Position numbers and translations under genes: made by a program. This document shows positions 1-7,503 of a stretch of DNA of 36,911 nucleotides, piece by piece. This DNA is from a virus (Duplodnaviria; Heunggongvirae; Uroviricota; Caudoviricetes). How positions within the stretch are numbered: the first letter of the stretch is position 1; every line of letters begins with the position of its first letter. The notes below the pieces were generated by a model that was not told where the DNA came from, did not search any database, and saw nothing but the letters and a program-made list of their open reading frames with translations. The stretch is from the IMG/VR virus record IMGVR_UViG_2531839667_000007. One strand, 5' to 3'.

Positions 1-810
1 TGCCGTCAATGTTCCGGCATCCACATCACCAGGCCAGAGAGCGTAGGCCAGTTCGTCATCCAGTGTTTTCCATGTCTGCTTGTATTCGCGATGAATGGCA
101 GCAATGACCGGGCTGATTTTTCCTGTTGAATTTTCAGTGTGCTGTTGATTGGCTCTGGCGCGGGCGAGATCAACAACAGACGTGTATTTTCCGGTTTCCT
201 TGCGTTCACCTTCGCGACGTTTTTTCCAGATGCGCATCTCTGCCTGAATTTCGGGCCATTTGGCACCAGGCTTACATTTATGCTTAACCCACCCGATGGC
301 ATGCAGCTTAAGCTCCGGATACATGGCGTTAACTTCTGGCATTTTCATCAACGCTTCAACGATATGTCCGTCGAATGTTGCCATGTCTTCCTGCAACAGT
401 TCCTGCGCGCTAATCACCATATCAACGGTGATGTTTTCACATGTGTCGAACTTAACCATGACAGCGTTCTGTACTTCAGGGGCCAGCTTGTCAAAAGTGA
501 CGTTCATAGGATCTGATTCAGTCTCAACCGGGACAAAGGAAGCAGACTCCTCATCCCAGCGGTTTTCCTGCATAAATTCAGCATCCCAGGAATCGAGGGC
601 AGGGCGGGGTATACCGGGTTTATCCTCGCAAACAAGAAATTTATAAGCGCAGTCCTGAGCAGCCGGATAATGTTCCAGGAATTGCCAGTGAAATTTTGCG
701 CGGGCGCGACGTTCATCACCGGCTTCAATGGCTGTGGCTACAGGTTTAGCGCCTTCTTGTTTTATTGCCTGTTCGTCCGGAATGGCAGCGCAAATAAAGA
801 CTTTACTCAT
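1..810 (-). CDS. hypothetical early-region protein, partial (3' end beyond window start)
   Basis: Own minus-strand translation from ATG (complement of 808-810) with GAGG Shine-Dalgarno gives 270 codons with no stop down to position 1 (MSKVFICAAIPDEQAIKQEG...GDVDAGTLTA); absent from ORF track because no stop lies in the window; family not recognised. Confidence 0.55.
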   Translation of the reverse strand, partial: MSKVFICAAIPDEQAIKQEGAKPVATAIEAGDERRARAKFHWQFLEHYPAAQDCAYKFLVCEDKPGIPRPALDSWDAEFMQENRWDEESASFVPVETESDPMNVTFDKLAPEVQNAVMVKFDTCENITVDMVISAQELLQEDMATFDGHIVEALMKMPEVNAMYPELKLHAIGWVKHKCKPGAKWPEIQAEMRIWKKRREGERKETGKYTSVVDLARARANQQHTENSTGKISPVIAAIHREYKQTWKTLDDELAYALWPGDVDAGTLTA

Positions 811-903
811 TTTGTTTTAACCTCATGACAGATTTAAGGGTGAACAAATCCCTGCCATTGCTGGCATATAAGAATGAAATCGGATGTTTATTACGGAACT
901 GTT

Positions 904-1104
904 TTAAAGACCTGCCGGGATTTCGTTATTATCCTGGTGAATAACTTTATCGACCGGGTAACAGTTACCGGGAATTTTCTGTTCGGTTGCTGCAGTCACA
1001 CACTCCTGCATTGTCCTGTGAACACTGACTGCAATATCAACTGGCTCTCCGGAAACAAGAAAAACTGTCAGAACAAGTGCAAATGCTGTATTCATTGCCA
1101 GCAT
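904..1104 (-). CDS. small hypothetical protein with signal-peptide-like hydrophobic N-terminus (66 aa from internal Met of track ORF 904..1149)
   Basis: Track ORF; N-terminus MLAMNTAFALVLTVFLVSG is hydrophobic; start choice uncertain, weak SD. Confidence 0.3.
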   Translation of the reverse strand: MLAMNTAFALVLTVFLVSGEPVDIAVSVHRTMQECVTAATEQKIPGNCYPVDKVIHQDNNEIPAGL

Positions 1105-1280
1105 CCTTTTTGTATCGGACGTAAACGGGCCAGCATTGAAAGAATGCATATTTTATTTAATAACTCCCGTTCGTGTTTTCTCTTGTTAATGGCATCTTCA
1201 GTAAATACAGGGTTACTGATAGTGACACCAATTTCAAAACAACCTTCAGACGTATTAACGTTTGGTAATAACGTTTCCAT
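1092..1280 (-). CDS. small hypothetical early protein (62 aa, METLLPNVNTSEG...)
   Basis: Internal ATG of track ORF 1092..1385 preceded by GAGGA at 7-nt spacing on minus strand. Confidence 0.35.
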   Translation of the reverse strand: METLLPNVNTSEGCFEIGVTISNPVFTEDAINKRKHERELLNKICILSMLARLRPIQKGCWQ

Positions 1281-1848
1281 TATCGCGTCCTCAACAATGA
1301 ATTTTGTGATGCGGTGCCTGGTGCCTCCAGGTGACGTTAACCAGTTAACAATTAACGCCGGATACAGAGAATCCACCCATAACACTGTTTTTGGTTTTAA
1401 CTGTTCCGCGTGCGCTCAGCCGCATTCACCACATCACAAAATTCACTTTAAAAAGGGCGGCAGAGCAGTCACGGAGTAAAACTGATACCGCCAAACGTCA
1501 CCAGAAAATTGATAACAGAGGGCGTTGCAGCGGGGTTGTCACTTAAGCGTATGGTCAACCTGACAACCCGGTGTCCTCAACGGGGGAAGGAATAACCCCG
1601 CCATACTTACCGCCGCGCCATTTCGCGGATTGCCACAACCGGAAGCGCACGGTCGACGAAAATTTAACGACAGGCTATCTATGAACCAGCTACCTCGCCG
1701 TGCGCTTTCGCGTTATGGTCTGACTTTTCAGGGAAATATCCTTTCAGTAAACTGTCAATGCCGGATGCTCACCCGTGTCCGGCGCACGCACTCCACCTCA
1801 CCCGTGGAGAACTCCTTAATTACTAACCTTAGCTTTGTTGATTAGCTA

Positions 1849-2067
1849 CTAACGCGGGTATGTAATCATTCTGGCAATGCTTAATGCCGCTGCTTTTTCC
1901 AGATTGGTGATATCCTGCTCCAGAGCGGACAGATTTTCAGCCTGCTTAGCCCTGGCTTCATTGGCCCATTTCAAATCCTGCGCTGCATTAATTTTCTGGC
2001 GCATCCACTCATAAAGTTCATCATCGGTATAGTCTGGCGCGATGATGACGGGTTCTCGTTTCTGCAT
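1849..2067 (-). CDS. small hypothetical early protein (72 aa)
   Basis: Track ORF; ATG preceded by GAGGA at 6-nt spacing; tightly packed with neighbouring minus-strand ORFs. Confidence 0.5.
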   Translation of the reverse strand: MQKREPVIIAPDYTDDELYEWMRQKINAAQDLKWANEARAKQAENLSALEQDITNLEKAAALSIARMITYPR

Positions 2068-2096
2068 ACTGATTCCTCGCGGTGCTGTTTCGCTTA

Positions 2097-2225
2097 TCAG
2101 CCGTTAGATTTTGCCGAACTGGAAAGCGCCTGTTTAAATTCGTTGAAGCCGAGAGCTTCTTCGCCGTCGGCAAGACCTTCGAAGTATTCTTCGTAAGCCT
2201 TTTCCATGATTGTGTCGAAATCCAT
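2097..2225 (-). CDS. small acidic hypothetical protein (42 aa, MDFDTIMEKAYEEYFEGLADGEEALGFNEFKQALSSSAKSNG)
   Basis: Own translation; ATG with AGGTGA SD at 5-nt spacing, 1 nt after the stop of the upstream ORF; below track length cutoff. Confidence 0.35.
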   Translation of the reverse strand: MDFDTIMEKAYEEYFEGLADGEEALGFNEFKQALSSSAKSNG

Positions 2226-2226
2226 A

Positions 2227-2382
2227 TCACTCACCTGAGTTTCTTTCCAGCCAGCGACGGGCACCATTTTCGGTTTTAAACGTTTTGCTTTTGGTATACG
2301 TCATCGCGGTGAATGTGCCGTCCTGGTTGGGAAACACGCCGTACACCAGAGATTCGTTGTTGCCAAGACCGATAGTATCCAT
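2227..2382 (-). CDS. small hypothetical protein, first gene leftward of the immunity region (51 aa from MDTIGLGNNE; alternative start at 2463)
   Basis: Track ORF 2227..2463; internal ATG preceded by GAGG at about 5-nt spacing; no arginine-rich N-like motif. Confidence 0.4.
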   Translation of the reverse strand: MDTIGLGNNESLVYGVFPNQDGTFTAMTYTKSKTFKTENGARRWLERNSGE

Positions 2383-2567
2383 GTTGACCTCATTTCCCCT
2401 TAACGCCGGGGTAGCGGAACAAAAACCTGCTGCATAGTTATTAAAGTTGAACCCTGCCGTCATGTTCTTACGCCTCGGGCTGGCTACTTAACCCCTGACC
2501 ACTGCCTGGTAACTCGAAGTATTGCCCTGCGTTCTGCGGGACGGGGTGGGTTGGTATGAAAGGAAGG

Positions 2568-2606
2568 ATACCCACGGGTATTTAAAAAGTAAATACCCGT
2601 GGGTAA
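2568..2606. promoter_or_regulatory. left operator region: two 14-bp palindromic sites ATACCCACGGGTAT (2568-2581) and ATACCCGTGGGTAA (2593-2606), candidate OL
   Basis: Near-perfect inverted repeats 25 bp centre to centre, just 3' of the repressor gene, matching two related sites on the other side of the repressor. Confidence 0.5.
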
Positions 2607-2648
2607 TTTTTTTGATGTGTCTTAACTGGTGACTGGTTGTTTGGTGAG

Positions 2649-3068
2649 TTATGATGCGTTTTGTGCTTTCTTTTTACGGATTTCTTCGTAGATCATATTG
2701 TAATACTGTTTTTTCTCTTCAAGAGTTTTTAATAAGTTATCCGCTTCACTTTCTGGCAGTTCGTCTAAGAGATCTAAAAAAATACGTTGTCGTGGCGTTA
2801 GAACCCTTGTTTCATAATTGGAGGCTGTGTTCGTTGATGATGAAACGATACCATCCATCCATCCCCGGGGTAACCCAAAGGACTCTTCTATAATCTCCAC
2901 CATATCATCAGCGATCCGTTTTTTTCCTTTTTTCCCCTCTGGGTACAACATTCTTGATACATAAGAAGGCTCGCGACCGATCTTTCTGGCCACGTTAACC
3001 GCTTTACCATCGCATTTCTCATCACGAATTTTGATGAGTTGTTGTCGTCTAAATTCATATTTGTCCAT
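2649..3068 (-). CDS. phage repressor (cI analogue), short HTH protein without LexA-like S24 peptidase domain
   Basis: 139 aa, HTH-like segment GKAVNVARKIGREPSYVSRMLY; divergent from cro-like gene; flanked by repeated operator-like sites. Confidence 0.75.
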   Translation of the reverse strand: MDKYEFRRQQLIKIRDEKCDGKAVNVARKIGREPSYVSRMLYPEGKKGKKRIADDMVEIIEESFGLPRGWMDGIVSSSTNTASNYETRVLTPRQRIFLDLLDELPESEADNLLKTLEEKKQYYNMIYEEIRKKKAQNAS

Positions 3069-3074
3069 AGGTAA

Positions 3075-3144
3075 ATAATAGATGCGATTACCGCAAGGTA
3101 AACAACCTAGGGGTATTGACTTTTGTTTACCTGTGGGTATTCTT
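3075..3144. promoter_or_regulatory. right operator/promoter region: sites ACCTAGGGGTAT (3105-3116) and ACCTGTGGGTAT (3129-3140); candidate PR -35 TTGACT (3116-3121) and -10 ATTCTT (3139-3144); candidate leaderless PRM with -10 TATTAT on minus strand (3075-3080)
   Basis: Operator-like repeats share ACCY-NN-GGGTAT core with the left sites; promoter hexamers read from sequence, not verified. Confidence 0.45.
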
Positions 3145-3168
3145 TACTGTGTTTACTAAGGAGTAGCT

Positions 3169-3450
3169 ATGGAAGAATTAAGAATATTTCTCAATTCTCT
3201 TTCGTCAGATGAACAGCGTATGTTTGCATGTGAGTGTGGTACTAGCATCGGTTATCTAAGAAAGGCATTGAGTAAAGGTCAAATCTTAGGGGCATCGTTA
3301 TGTGTCCTTATTGAGCGAGCCAGTAATGGTGAAGTTACACGTCAGCAACTAAGGCCTTTTGATTGGATGAATATTTGGCCCGAGCTGGAAGATACCAAAA
3401 CGTTAACACAACCACTTACTAGGAGCTTGATTCATGAAAATCAAGCATGA
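3169..3450 (+). CDS. Cro-like early regulator (YdaS-like HTH protein)
   Basis: 93 aa, divergent from repressor, AAGGAG SD 5 nt upstream; resemblance to Rac-prophage YdaS family is from recall. Confidence 0.65.
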   Translation: MEELRIFLNSLSSDEQRMFACECGTSIGYLRKALSKGQILGASLCVLIERASNGEVTRQQLRPFDWMNIWPELEDTKTLTQPLTRSLIHENQA

Positions 3451-3859
3451 ACACATCCGCATGGCGATGAATGCCTGGGCGCGTCCTGATGGCGAAAAAG
3501 TTCCAGCAGCTGGAATAACCCAGGCTTATTTTGAGTTGGGTATGACGTTTCCTGAACTGTATGACGACAGCCATCCGGAAGCCCTGGCTCGCAATACCCA
3601 GAAAATTTTCCGCTGGGTAGAGAAAGACACCCCTGATGCAGTTGAAAAAATTCAGGCGTTGTTACCAGCGATCGAAAAGGCAATGCCACCTTTGCTGGTG
3701 GCCAGAATGCGCAGCCACAGTTCAGCTTATTTTCGGGAGCTGGTGGAGACGCGGGAGCGATTGGTGAGAGACGCTGATGATTTTGTCGCAGTGGCAATCG
3801 CCGGTTTCAATCAGATGAACCGTGGTGGCCCGGCAGGAAATGCTGTGGCAGTACATTGA
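3434..3859 (+). CDS. YdaT-like protein (CII-position regulator of Rac-type prophages)
   Basis: 141 aa starting MKIKHEHI, as recalled for Rac YdaT; overlaps the cro-like gene end; AGGAG SD. Confidence 0.65.
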   Translation: MKIKHEHIRMAMNAWARPDGEKVPAAGITQAYFELGMTFPELYDDSHPEALARNTQKIFRWVEKDTPDAVEKIQALLPAIEKAMPPLLVARMRSHSSAYFRELVETRERLVRDADDFVAVAIAGFNQMNRGGPAGNAVAVH

Positions 3860-3930
3860 CTGACAATAGCCATATCGAATCGCTTCCGGCAACTCGTGAG
3901 TAAAAAGATTCGGTATCAGAAGAGGTGAGT

Positions 3931-5001
3931 ATGGCTAACGCTTGGCTCAGATTATGGCATGACATGCCAAATGACCCTAAGTGGCGAACAATTGCCAGGG
4001 TGTCAGGGCAGCCAATTGCAACAGTGATGGCAGTGTATATCCACCTCCTGGTGAGCGCGTCACGAAATGTCACGCGAGGTCACATTGATGTCACGACAGA
4101 AGATTTGGCAAGTGCGCTCGACGTGACAGAAGAGGTAATTGATTCAATTTTGCAGACGATGCAGGGGCGGGTACTTGATGGTGATTTAATCACTGGATGG
4201 GAAAAACGCCAGGTGCTTAAAGAGGACAACGGCAATATTTCGCAAACCGCAAAATCTCCTGCAGAGCGCAAGAGGGCGCAGCGAGAGAGGGAAAGAAAGC
4301 GGGAACAAAATGGCGATTGTCACGGCGCGTCACGAAATGTCACGCACATGTCACGACGAGTCACGACAGATAAAGATACAGATAAAGATACAGATCAAGA
4401 AGATCAAAACACTATGGTCCATGGCGTAAAAAACGCCACGAACCAGGCAGGGGATGTTCAGACCGTCAATCTTGGTCAGCCAGCAGGCACGACACCGGAA
4501 GCCGATTCAGCGTATGCGCTGAAAGCCGATTCGGGCGCTGTGCAGCAGGTGATGACCGCAAGGCCGGAGCAATCACACCAACTGCAGCAGCCTGAAGCCG
4601 ATTCCGCCATTCTGCGGGAAGCCGATCGGGTAGTCCCGGAAAACACCGGGCAGTCTGTGGGACGAGTGGATTATCCGGATGTGTTCGAACAGGTCTGGCG
4701 GGAGTACCCGTTGCGTGCCGGAGCAAACCCGAAGAAATCCGCTTTCAGTGCCTGGAAGGCCAGATTACGCGAGGGGGTGCCACCAGAGGCCATGCTGGAT
4801 GGCGTGAGGCGTTACGCAAGATACTTGGCGGCTACCGGGAAAACGGGAACGGAATTTGTTCAGCGAGCGACGACGTTTTTAGGACCGGACCGGAATTTTG
4901 AGAACCCCTGGTTGCTCCCGGTAAGCGGTACGAACAACCAGCGTTGCGTGAATCACATTTCTGAACCAGATACCGAAATTCCACTGGGCTTCAGGGGGTA
5001 A
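3931..5001 (+). CDS. replication initiation protein (lambda O analogue) with internal iterons
   Basis: 356 aa from ATG 3931 (SD AGAAGAGG); position after cro/CII-like genes; contains two clusters of GTCACG direct repeats. Confidence 0.65.
   Translation: MANAWLRLWHDMPNDPKWRTIARVSGQPIATVMAVYIHLLVSASRNVTRGHIDVTTEDLASALDVTEEVIDSILQTMQGRVLDGDLITGWEKRQVLKEDNGNISQTAKSPAERKRAQRERERKREQNGDCHGASRNVTHMSRRVTTDKDTDKDTDQEDQNTMVHGVKNATNQAGDVQTVNLGQPAGTTPEADSAYALKADSGAVQQVMTARPEQSHQLQQPEADSAILREADRVVPENTGQSVGRVDYPDVFEQVWREYPLRAGANPKKSAFSAWKARLREGVPPEAMLDGVRRYARYLAATGKTGTEFVQRATTFLGPDRNFENPWLLPVSGTNNQRCVNHISEPDTEIPLGFRG
4059..4095. repeat. iteron cluster 1: GTCACG/GTCACA at 4059, 4069, 4079, 4090 (about 10-bp phasing)
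   Basis: Direct repeats read from sequence inside the replication gene; encode ASRNVTRGHIDVTT. Confidence 0.55.
4319..4390. repeat. iteron cluster 2: GTCACG at 4319, 4329, 4339, 4350, 4360 followed by AT-rich tandem ACAGATAAAGAT x2 (candidate origin)
   Basis: Direct repeats at helical phasing then AT-rich tandem repeat, as in lambda ori inside O. Confidence 0.55.
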
Positions 5002-7076: not shown

Positions 7077-7252
7077 TGCTGCGGGTGCTTGAGGCTATCT
7101 GTCTCAGGCATGAACACCAAAAGGCAGATAGAGAAAAGCCCCAGTTAACATTACGCGTCCGGCAAGACGCTTAACATTAATCTGAGGCCATATCTATGCT
7201 CTACACACGTAGGTTAGCCTCTTACGTGCCGAAAGGCAAGGAGAAGCAGGCT

Positions 7253-7408
7253 ATGAAGCAGCAAAAGGCGATGCTTATCGCCCTGATCGTCATCTGTTTA
7301 ACCGTCATTGTGACGGCACTGGTAACGAGGAAAGACCTCTGCGAGGTACGACTCCGAACCGGCCAGACGGAGGTCGCTGTCTTCACAGCTTACGAACCTG
7401 AGGAGTAA
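7253..7408 (+). CDS. hok: Hok/Gef family type I toxin (51 aa)
   Basis: MKQQKAMLIALIVICLTVIVTALVTRKDLCEVRLRTGQTEVAVFTAYEPEE aligns with plasmid R1 Hok along its length; strong SD AAGGCAAGGAGAAG; in-frame upstream ATG at 7196. Confidence 0.8.
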   Translation: MKQQKAMLIALIVICLTVIVTALVTRKDLCEVRLRTGQTEVAVFTAYEPEE

Positions 7409-7478
7409 GAGACCAGGCGAGGGAGAAATCCCTCGCCACCTCTGATGAGTCAGGCATCCTCAACGCACCCGCACTTAA

Positions 7479-7503
7479 CCCGCTTCGGCGGGTTTTGTTT
7501 TTT
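7479..7503 (+). terminator. rho-independent terminator of the hok-like transcript
   Basis: CCCGC-TTCG-GCGGG hairpin followed by TTTTGTTTTTT. Confidence 0.6.

What the first reader, a model, noticed from the sequence alone, without database searches (positions are those of the whole stretch)
810..2463. Early-left operon of small genes with no recognisable N antiterminator and a 460-bp non-coding gap
Leftward of the immunity region are at least five small minus-strand ORFs (42-72 aa) and then a large partial ORF, none arginine-rich or N-like, although a Q-type late antiterminator is present. A gap of about 460 bp (1386-1848) has no convincing ORF on either strand and could hold a terminator, an antitermination RNA element or an sRNA. 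Small early-left genes of lambdoid phages often encode host-takeover, exclusion or anti-defence functions.
Basis: partly seen in the sequence, partly recalled or inferred. Interest (0 to 1): 0.45.

Follow-up and report, generated by a model that had tools for sequence, protein, structure and literature searches.

The report
The known dicBF prophage operon
This is the long-studied dicBF operon of Qin-type lambdoid prophages of E. coli, and the "empty" gap holds the DicF small RNA, its terminator and its RNase III processing stems, so the finding is real but ordinary.

Summary
Leftward of the repressor lie five small minus-strand genes and then a partial RecE-type exonuclease. No N-like protein, nut site or put site was found. 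The non-coding gap is real and larger than stated: 1281-1848, 568 nt.

It is not new. Window 44-2420 is 96.6% identical to the E. coli K-12 Qin operon ydfA-ydfB-ydfC-dicF-dicB-ydfD-exonuclease. The gap matches Rfam DicF at 1455-1506 (76.7 bits, cut-off 48), identical to the K-12 copy. The gap sequence occurs in 4738 of 5426 complete E. coli genomes and in functional phages such as Tritos and mEp460.

Published work on K-12 explains the rest of the gap:
- an upstream RNase III hairpin that gives a 190-nt DicF precursor;
- an RNase E site that gives the 53-nt DicF;
- an intrinsic terminator;
- a downstream RNase III site that gives a 72-nt DicF;
- no internal promoter.

One less documented detail emerged. 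The 152 nt between the DicF terminator and dicB (1296-1447) form a 21-bp stem closing a pseudoknotted core. This core is a diverged relative of the prophage sRNA family STnc100/PasD. A full STnc100 copy lies at 11829-12018, and the same module precedes kilR in Rac prophages.

The parts
1..810 (-). N-terminal 270 codons of a RecE/exonuclease VIII-type gene (ydfE equivalent); runs off the window
   Evidence: No stop codons. phrog_2082 exonuclease E=2e-203. Annotated as exonuclease VIII in phage Tritos.
904..1095 (-). ydfD (63 aa, DUF1482; annotated as lysis protein YdfD in RefSeq)
   Evidence: Pfam DUF1482 E=7.8e-25. 59/63 residues identical to the K-12-type copy. Overlaps the dicB stop by 4 nt, as in K-12.
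1092..1280 (-). dicB (62 aa cell-division inhibitor); GAGGA Shine-Dalgarno sequence at 1287-1291
   Evidence: Pfam DicB E=1.7e-37. NCBIfam CellDivInhibDicB 132.7 bits against a cut-off of 100. 55/62 residues identical to the K-12-type copy.
1296..1447 (-). Structured spacer between DicF and dicB. A 21-bp stem P1 (1427-1447 paired with 1296-1316) closes a core of hairpin P2, a pseudoknot (CAGUUAA 1397-1403 with UUAACUG 1342-1348), hairpin P3b and hairpin P4 (1317-1331, loop AGGCA). The published 72-nt DicF 3' end (about 1435) falls inside the 5' strand of the stem. It is a diverged relative of STnc100.
   Evidence: Fold z=-4.5. Rfam STnc100 38.7 bits, E=2.8e-6, below the 47-bit cut-off. Five pairs with compensatory changes in 14 early-left copies. 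P1 and pseudoknot covariation across the family. The 72-nt RNase III product is reported in the literature.
1455..1506 (-). DicF sRNA (52-53 nt)
   Evidence: Rfam RF00039 76.7 bits against a cut-off of 48, E=2e-15, full model length. Identical to the K-12-type copy. Annotated as DicF in phage Tritos.
1450..1492 (-). Intrinsic terminator of DicF: hairpin 1456-1492 plus U5 tract 1450-1454
   Evidence: Sequence and fold. Rho-independent termination at this point is reported for K-12.
1507..1641 (-). 5' part of the 190-nt DicF precursor. Nearly invariant across mosaic relatives. Three hairpins. RNase E site at its 3' end.
   Evidence: Conservation in the alignment. The 190-nt species and its RNase III-made 5' end at +813/814 of the K-12 transcript are published. 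I mapped that position to about window 1641 from the K-12 promoter sequence (inference).
1636..1715 (-). Long hairpin holding the upstream RNase III site. The basal stem is conserved; the apical part is hypervariable.
   Evidence: Fold -29.3 kcal/mol, z=-2.1. Variation pattern. RNase III dependence of the 190-nt species.
1849..2067 (-). ydfC (72 aa, function unknown)
   Evidence: 72/72 residues identical to the K-12-type copy. phrog_1744 E=1.6e-39.
2097..2225 (-). ydfB (42 aa, function unknown)
   Evidence: 39/42 residues identical to the K-12-type copy. phrog_2061 E=2.7e-26.
2227..2463 (-). ydfA family (DUF1391). 78-aa long form here; the K-12-type 51-aa form starts at 2382.
   Evidence: Pfam DUF1391 E=7.5e-27. 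phrog_751 aligns from residue 10 of the long form. K-12 homology stops at 2420 and K-12 has no start codon upstream.
2565..2605 (-). Inferred early-left promoter: -35 TTTACT at 2588-2593 and -10 TATCCT at 2565-2570. Two palindromic operators TACCCNNGGGTA lie at 2569-2580 and 2594-2605.
   Evidence: Read from the sequence by analogy with the right promoter TTGACT-16-TATTCT and its operator TACCTGTGGGTA at 3128-3139. This is inference, not a measured start site.
2649..3068 (-). Repressor of the immunity region (139 aa). A different immunity type from K-12 DicA.
   Evidence: phrog_5736 transcriptional regulator E=4.7e-70. Only a weak C-terminal match to DicA, 24 bits against a cut-off of 101.

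Best explanation
The region is the early-left (dicBF) operon of a Qin-, mEp460- or Tritos-type lambdoid prophage of E. coli.

Inferred promoter. One repressor-controlled promoter at about 2565-2593 drives a leftward polycistronic transcript: ydfA-ydfB-ydfC, a 568-nt untranslated stretch, dicB-ydfD, then a RecE-type exonuclease. In the related phage Tritos, xis and int follow.

What the untranslated stretch is. It is the DicF precursor, not empty DNA. By homology with K-12, where these steps were shown experimentally, processing runs as follows:
1. RNase III cuts a long hairpin (1636-1715) and yields a 190-nt precursor.
2. RNase E trims the precursor to the 53-nt DicF (1455-1506).
3. The 3' end of DicF is set either by its own intrinsic terminator (1450-1492) or, on read-through transcripts, by RNase III cutting the 21-bp stem just downstream. 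The latter gives the 72-nt form.

Consequences (inferred). The terminator acts as an internal attenuator. It makes DicF the main product and lets only read-through transcripts reach the toxic genes dicB and ydfD.

Published functions. DicF represses ftsZ and other mRNAs with the help of Hfq. DicB blocks cell division and protects against phage infection by inhibiting inner-membrane receptor proteins. YdfD is annotated as a lysis protein.

Antitermination. No N-type protein or RNA antiterminator is encoded here. Reaching the distal genes most likely relies on incomplete termination.
For: - Window 44-2420 is 96.6% identical over 2378 nt to a K-12-type Qin locus annotated ydfA, ydfB, ydfC, dicB, ydfD, exonuclease.
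- Rfam DicF scores 76.7 bits against a cut-off of 48. The sequence is identical to the K-12-type copy.
- Pfam and NCBIfam identify DicB, DUF1391 and DUF1482.
- Phage Tritos has the same gene order with DicF annotated, followed by exonuclease VIII, xis and int.
- The gap sequence is present in 4738 of 5426 complete E. coli genomes.
- Predicted hairpins coincide with the published processing sites. Those sites are the 190-nt, 53-nt and 72-nt species, the RNase III and RNase E dependence, and the finding of no internal promoter.
- No ARM protein and no boxA were found. No put-like sequence was found.
Against: - Nothing contradicts the identification.
- Processing and termination were shown in K-12, not in this phage.
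- The immunity module (repressor and operators) differs from K-12 DicA/DicC, so the promoter position here is inferred.
- How enough transcription passes the DicF terminator to express the exonuclease (and xis and int, if they follow as in Tritos) during lytic growth is not established. The 2023 K-12 study did not detect the full-length transcript on Northern blots.
Confidence: 0.95

Rival explanations
1. The gap carries a cis-acting antitermination RNA, put-like or nut-like, that replaces N and lets RNA polymerase read through to the distal early-left genes.
For: No N homologue was found. An intrinsic terminator sits in the middle of the operon. A conserved, pseudoknotted RNA domain lies just beyond it.
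Against: HK022 putL and putR find nothing relevant in the window, and they are not hit by the STnc100 model. There is no boxA. The structured domain lies downstream of the terminator it would need to suppress. Its late-operon relatives are followed by working terminators that define the STnc100 sRNA, so the fold does not antiterminate by itself. K-12 work explains the stems as RNase III sites.
Confidence: 0.04
2. The gap hides a small protein gene that the reader missed.
For: Mechanical ORFs exist: 1555-1650 (-) 31 aa, 1630-1845 (+) 71 aa, 1391-1546 (+) 51 aa and 1571-1684 (+) 37 aa.
Against: A 1-nt indel at 1586, indels at 1672-1694 and a deletion of 1627-1712 in close relatives break these frames. 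All four ORFs start with GTG or TTG. The region is annotated as non-coding in RefSeq K-12-type genomes and in phage Tritos.
Confidence: 0.02
3. The 152-nt STnc100-like domain (1296-1447) is more than an RNase III substrate. Either it is released by cuts on both strands of the 21-bp stem as a third stable RNA of the operon, or it acts in cis on the translation or stability of dicB (and of kilR in Rac). This reading would add to the main explanation, not replace it.
For: - The fold is conserved, with compensatory changes and a covarying pseudoknot shared with STnc100.
- Junction and loop nucleotides are invariant.
- The same module lies directly upstream of dicB, of kilR and of other small genes in different prophages.
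- Its 3' strand ends 4 nt before the dicB Shine-Dalgarno sequence.
Against: No such RNA species has been reported in the papers read. Conservation could reflect recent shared ancestry of a mobile module. The early-left copies vary little outside the central insert.
Confidence: 0.3

Closest known systems
dicBF operon (ydfABC-dicF-dicB-ydfDE) of the Qin cryptic prophage, E. coli K-12
   Same: Gene order, gene sizes and the 568-nt DicF-bearing spacer. 96.6% nucleotide identity over 2.4 kb. DicF is identical.
   Different: The immunity module is a different type: the repressor, the operators TACCCNNGGGTA and the promoter all differ. The first gene has a 27-codon N-terminal extension. In the K-12-type locus the exonuclease is cut short and followed by IS2. 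Here its first 270 codons are open to the window edge, and the prophage looks intact.
Functional temperate phages Tritos (OV696610) and mEp460_ev081
   Same: The same early-left operon, including an annotated DicF, at 96-97% identity. In Tritos it is followed by exonuclease VIII, xis and int. mEp460_ev081 is cited in the literature as a live phage carrying dicB, dicF, dicAC and rem.
   Different: Partly different immunity and replication modules. The match to Tritos covers 75% of window 1-3500.
Rac prophage spacer between sieB and kilR
   Same: A DicF-like hairpin and terminator (39 bits) is followed by the same long-stem STnc100-like domain (35.5 bits), directly upstream of a division-inhibiting kil gene.
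   Different: The DicF seed region differs. The downstream gene is kilR, not dicB. Identity is about 81% over 165 nt.
STnc100 (RF02076) and PasD prophage sRNAs
   Same: Shared P1, the AAU junction, P2, the pseudoknot, P3b, the P4 loop AGGCA and the UCACC/CACC motifs. A full copy lies in this window at 11829-12018.
   Different: - The early-left copy scores below the Rfam cut-off.
- Its P1 is 21 bp instead of 7-9 bp.
- It has no promoter or terminator of its own.
- It is followed by a coding gene rather than a seed region plus terminator.
Lambda N/nutL and HK022 putL early-left antitermination systems
   Same: The same position in the genome map, just left of the immunity region, in a long leftward operon that contains a terminator.
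   Different: No arginine-rich N-like protein, no boxA/boxB and no put-like two-stem RNA were found.

Membership tests
DicF RNA (Rfam RF00039) | Covariance-model score at or above the curated gathering score over the full model | tested here: met
   76.7 bits against 48, model positions 1-52 of 52, E=2e-15.
DicF RNA (Rfam RF00039) | Lies in the untranslated stretch between ydfC and dicB, on the same strand | tested here: met
   1455-1506 (-), between ydfC (1849-2067) and dicB (1092-1280).
DicF RNA (Rfam RF00039) | 3' intrinsic terminator hairpin followed by a U tract | tested here: met
   Hairpin 1456-1492 and UUUUU at 1450-1454.
DicF RNA (Rfam RF00039) | [quoted passage not shown] | not testable with these tools
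   Known for the identical K-12 sequence from the literature.
dicBF operon of Qin-type prophages | Gene order ydfA-ydfB-ydfC-dicF-dicB-ydfD-exonuclease on one strand | tested here: met
dicBF operon of Qin-type prophages | Control by a DicA/DicC-type repressor pair immediately upstream | tested here: inconclusive
   A repressor and cro pair sits in the right place. The repressor matches DicA only weakly (24 bits against a cut-off of 101), and nucleotide homology to K-12 ends at 2420. It is analogous to, not orthologous with, DicA/DicC.
Lambda-type N/nut antitermination | Small arginine-rich protein encoded just downstream of the left promoter | tested here: not met
   No arginine-rich ORF in 1-3500 apart from a 30-codon out-of-frame stretch. 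All five small proteins belong to other families.
Lambda-type N/nut antitermination | boxA (CGCTCTTA-like) plus a boxB hairpin downstream of the early promoters | tested here: not met
   No boxA-like match on either strand of the window.
HK022 put RNA | Two-stem RNA of about 70 nt related to putL/putR, downstream of an early promoter | tested here: not met
   blastn-short and a two-sequence nhmmer profile give only chance matches, none downstream of either early promoter. The test was by sequence only; there is no Rfam model for put.
STnc100 (Rfam RF02076) | Covariance-model score at or above the gathering score | tested here: not met
   Window 1248-1457 (-) scores 38.7 bits against 47, although E=2.8e-6. 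The late-region copy at 11829-12018 scores 132.4 bits.
STnc100 (Rfam RF02076) | Shared helices and conserved junction and loop nucleotides | tested here: met
   P1, P2, P3b, P4 and a pseudoknot are present in both types and covary.
STnc100 (Rfam RF02076) | Stand-alone sRNA gene with its own terminator after a variable 3' region | tested here: not met
   The early-left copy is followed 4 nt later by the dicB Shine-Dalgarno sequence, with no terminator.

The most novel reading that the evidence does not exclude
The 152-nt pseudoknotted domain between the DicF terminator and dicB belongs to the same structural family as the STnc100/PasD prophage sRNAs. It may be a functional RNA module in its own right. 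It could be excised by RNase III as a third RNA product of the operon, or it could gate expression of the kil-type gene that always follows it (dicB, kilR or others). On that reading, the conserved STnc100 5' domain would have a role beyond being a scaffold for a base-pairing seed.
Probability: 0.25. Interest if true: 0.4.

Novelty: already known. Interest (0 to 1): 0.1.

Why it matters
As a discovery it does not matter. The operon, the sRNA, its terminator and its processing have been studied since about 1990, and the sequence is in most E. coli genomes.

It is useful for annotation. It explains a large non-coding gap in this prophage, corrects the dicB start to 1280, and shows that an intact-looking phage carries the full dicBF module next to a different immunity region.

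The only thread worth following is the STnc100-like pseudoknotted domain downstream of DicF. It links two prophage RNA families that the papers I read treat separately.

Tried and rejected
- **N-like protein.** Pfam, NCBIfam, PHROGs and PADLOC searches of all small ORFs, plus an arginine-rich-window scan of all six frames, found nothing.
- **nut site.** No boxA was found.
- **put RNA.** The Rfam scan of the HK022 immunity region showed that STnc100 is not put. HK022 putL/putR searches of the window gave only chance matches.
- **Hidden ORFs in the gap.** Rejected because indels in close relatives break the frames.
- **Internal promoter in the gap.** The consensus scan finds none on the minus strand, and K-12 primer extension found none.
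- **Known riboswitch or ribozyme families.** A permissive Rfam scan of 700-3300 gave only DicF, STnc100 and chance miRNA hits on the operator palindrome.
- **Structure in the 350 nt upstream of DicF.** The region taken as a whole is not significantly structured (z=-1.2). Only the RNase III hairpin stands out (z=-2.1).
- **PDB sequence searches of YdfA and YdfC.** Nothing significant.
- **Faubladier & Bouche 1994.** This paper could not be read because it is not held.
- **Papers naming the dicF-dicB spacer.** The search found no paper that describes an RNA from the dicF-dicB spacer.
Full report
**Checking the observation.** ORF listing and direct reading of window 1-4200 confirm a run of small minus-strand ORFs left of a repressor (2649-3068, minus strand) and cro (3169-3450, plus strand) pair. 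A long ORF then starts at 810 and runs off the window edge. It has no stop codon and matches the exonuclease family phrog_2082 at E=2e-203.

The gap is real, but its left edge was misplaced. The 97-aa ORF 1092-1385 is a GTG-started extension of a 62-aa protein that starts at the ATG at 1280. The non-coding stretch is therefore 1281-1848, or 568 nt. A six-frame scan for arginine-rich stretches and for boxA found nothing relevant downstream of either early promoter. A Q-type protein (DUF1133 plus Phage_antitermQ) is at 9268-9831.

**What it is.** Rfam at curated thresholds places DicF RNA at 1455-1506 on the minus strand, inside the gap. The score is 76.7 bits against a cut-off of 48, over the full model length.

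The proteins fall into known families:

| Gene | Coordinates (minus strand) | Length | Evidence |
|---|---|---|---|
| dicB | 1092-1280 | 62 aa | Pfam DicB E=1.7e-37; NCBIfam 132.7 bits |
| ydfD | 904-1095 | 63 aa | DUF1482 |
| ydfA family | 2227-2382/2463 | 51 or 78 aa | DUF1391 |
| ydfB | 2097-2225 | 42 aa | phrog_2061 |
| ydfC | 1849-2067 | 72 aa | phrog_1744 |

Window 44-2420 aligns at 96.6% identity over 2378 nt to a K-12-type chromosome. There RefSeq annotates dicC, dicA, ydfA, ydfB, ydfC, dicB, ydfD, an exonuclease cut short, then IS2. Against that copy, YdfC is identical, YdfA differs at one residue, YdfB at three, YdfD at four and DicB at seven.

DicF itself is identical to the K-12-type copy. 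The gap sequence matches 4738 of 5426 complete E. coli genomes, at a median of two places per genome. The functional phage Tritos has the same order with DicF annotated, followed by exonuclease VIII, xis and int. The literature notes a live phage, mEp460_ev081, that carries dicB, dicF, dicAC and rem. So this is the early-left operon of a Qin-type lambdoid phage, the dicBF operon.

**Anatomy of the gap, matched to published experiments.** Papers on K-12 report the following:
- One polycistronic transcript starts at dicBp, and no internal promoter was found.
- RNase III makes the 5' end of a 190-nt DicF species, at +813/814 of the transcript.
- RNase E makes the 5' end of the 53-nt DicF.
- The 3' end is made by Rho-independent termination.
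- On read-through transcripts an RNase III cut gives a 72-nt form.

In the window these features map as follows:
- **Upstream RNase III hairpin, 1636-1715.** The fold is -29.3 kcal/mol with z=-2.1. Its basal stem is conserved and its apical part is hypervariable in relatives. Counting from the K-12 promoter, I place the +813/814 cut at about window 1641, inside the 3' strand of this hairpin. That mapping is my inference.
- **Precursor body, 1507-1641.** This part of the 190-nt precursor is almost invariant across mosaic relatives.
- **Terminator.** The hairpin is 1456-1492 and the U5 tract is 1450-1454.
- **Downstream stem.** A DicF of 72 nt would end at about 1435. That lies inside the 5' strand of a 21-bp stem formed by 1427-1447 and 1296-1316.
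- **dicB ribosome-binding site.** The Shine-Dalgarno sequence GAGGA starts 4 nt after that stem.

Candidate ORFs in the gap are not conserved. A 1-nt indel at 1586, indels at 1672-1694 and a deletion of 1627-1712 in relatives break them.

**How it most likely works.** A repressor-controlled promoter is inferred at about 2565-2593. It has -35 TTTACT, an operator TACCCGTGGGTA in the spacer, and -10 TATCCT, which parallels the right promoter. This promoter would drive the operon.

The DicF terminator then acts as an internal attenuator. Terminated transcripts give ydfABC mRNA and DicF. Read-through transcripts are cut by RNase III, which separates DicF from the dicB-ydfD mRNA. The processing steps are shown for K-12 and inferred here by near-identity. 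The attenuator role is inference.

**The N question.** No N homologue, nut site or put-like RNA was found. The HK022 put regions are not hit by STnc100 or by any other relevant Rfam model.

Reaching the distal genes probably relies on leaky termination. That fits DicB-dependent filamentation when the K-12 operon is derepressed, even though the full-length RNA was not seen on blots.

The early-right operon also has one clear intrinsic terminator before Q, at 7477-7494 just after hok/sok. The N-less design is therefore a real but unexplained feature of this phage type. It is not a property of this window alone.

**A less documented detail.** A permissive Rfam scan gives a sub-threshold STnc100 match at 1248-1457 on the minus strand: 38.7 bits against a cut-off of 47, E=2.8e-6. 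The same pairing of a weak DicF match and a weak STnc100 match sits upstream of kilR in a Rac-type prophage. A full STnc100 copy (132 bits) lies at 11829-12018 in the late region.

A motif shared by both window copies, TCACCNGGAGGCACCNGGCACC, found more than 120 IMG/VR contigs. The copies fall into two types:
- **Late type.** It often sits right after a TTGACA-17-TAAATT promoter and is followed by a terminator. It lies just upstream of holin and endolysin genes.
- **Early-left type.** It always follows a DicF-like terminator and lies directly upstream of dicB, kilR or another small gene.

The shared fold has these elements:
- P1, a closing helix that covaries, for example GCAUGGUG/CACCAUGC against GUGUGGUG/CACCACAC and CUACGGUG/CACCGUAG;
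- the junction AAU;
- hairpin P2;
- a pseudoknot between the nucleotides just after P2 and the loop of hairpin P3b;
- hairpin P4 with loop AGGCA, where the closing pair is G-C in the late type and U-A in the early-left type.

The pseudoknot pairs differ between clusters but stay complementary: CCAGUC/GACUGG, AUCAGCG/UGCUGGU, CUGGUG/CACCGG, and CAGUUAA/UUAACUG in the early-left type. The mean longest complementary run is 6.14 nt, against 4.65 in 200 partner permutations with a maximum of 5.01. In 14 early-left copies, five pairs show compensatory changes, two of them in the long stem.

The papers I could read treat STnc100 and PasD as prophage sRNAs near Q. None mentions a relative inside the dicBF operon. 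I could not read the 1990 and 1994 Bouche papers, so earlier notice of this relationship cannot be excluded.

**Verdict.** The feature is the well-known dicBF operon with the DicF sRNA, so it is already known and of low interest. The STnc100-like domain is a modest lead that does not change that verdict.

Noticed in passing
window 11829-12018 (+): A full-length STnc100 sRNA (132 bits) ending in the terminator CAGCCCCTCTCCGGAGGGGCTG-TTTAT. It lies after three tRNA genes and a terminator at 11767-11784. In IMG/VR relatives, this late type sits just upstream of holin and endolysin genes and often directly behind a TTGACA-17-TAAATT promoter. It may therefore be the leader of the late transcript.
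   Followed up: partly
STnc100 family; window 1296-1447 (-) and 11829-12018 (+); loci L006-L125: The family has a covarying pseudoknot. The 6-9 nt right after hairpin P2 pair with the loop of hairpin P3b. The Rfam consensus line printed by cmscan does not show it. Some contigs carry 2-3 tandem copies, for example L013, L019, L038, L059 and L079.
   Followed up: partly
L002 3951-4194 (Rac-type prophage, between sieB and kilR): A DicF-like hairpin and terminator (39 bits) plus the same STnc100-like long-stem domain (35.5 bits) lie directly upstream of kilR. The RNA module thus travels with different division-inhibitor genes.
   Followed up: partly
L003 4001-4123 (e14/CPS-53-type prophage, between ymfK and yfdP): The conserved roughly 110 nt that precede DicF (window 1516-1639) recur at 90% identity just downstream of a LexA-like repressor gene. 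They are followed by a different terminator hairpin that lacks the DicF seed. This may be a DicF-type precursor carrying another sRNA.
   Followed up: no
window 1828/1829; loci L043, L089, L022, L106: A mosaic joint lies 20 nt after the ydfC stop. L043, L089 and L022 carry an extra insert of about 590-630 bp there, encoding a 106-135 aa protein (MEFKDLP...). L106 has a different insert of about 590 bp at 1728-1759.
   Followed up: no
window 2569-2605: A perfect 16-bp inverted repeat with a 5-nt loop. It is made of two operator palindromes, TACCCACGGGTA and TACCCGTGGGTA, and a third operator lies at 3128-3139 in the right promoter. It produced spurious miRNA hits in Rfam and a terminator-like call on both strands.
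   Followed up: partly
window 7083-7258 (+), ORF 7196-7408, terminator 7477-7494: A hok/sok toxin-antitoxin module (sok 117 bits) with a strong intrinsic terminator sits in the early-right operon between the replication genes and Q. A phage without N must somehow transcribe past it.
   Followed up: no
window 11503-11749 (+): Three tRNA genes (Rfam scores 72.5, 42.9 and 70.1 bits) lie between a DNA methylase gene (10404-11453) and STnc100. This is the position where Stx phages carry tRNAs and stx genes.
   Followed up: no
window 2227-2463 (-): Several phage records annotate the YdfA homologue as 'head-DNA stabilization protein D'. The only support is a non-significant similarity to a head decoration protein in the PDB (E=0.2), so this looks like a propagated misannotation. 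The 78-aa long form appears to be the ancestral gene, and the K-12 51-aa YdfA a truncated one.
   Followed up: partly
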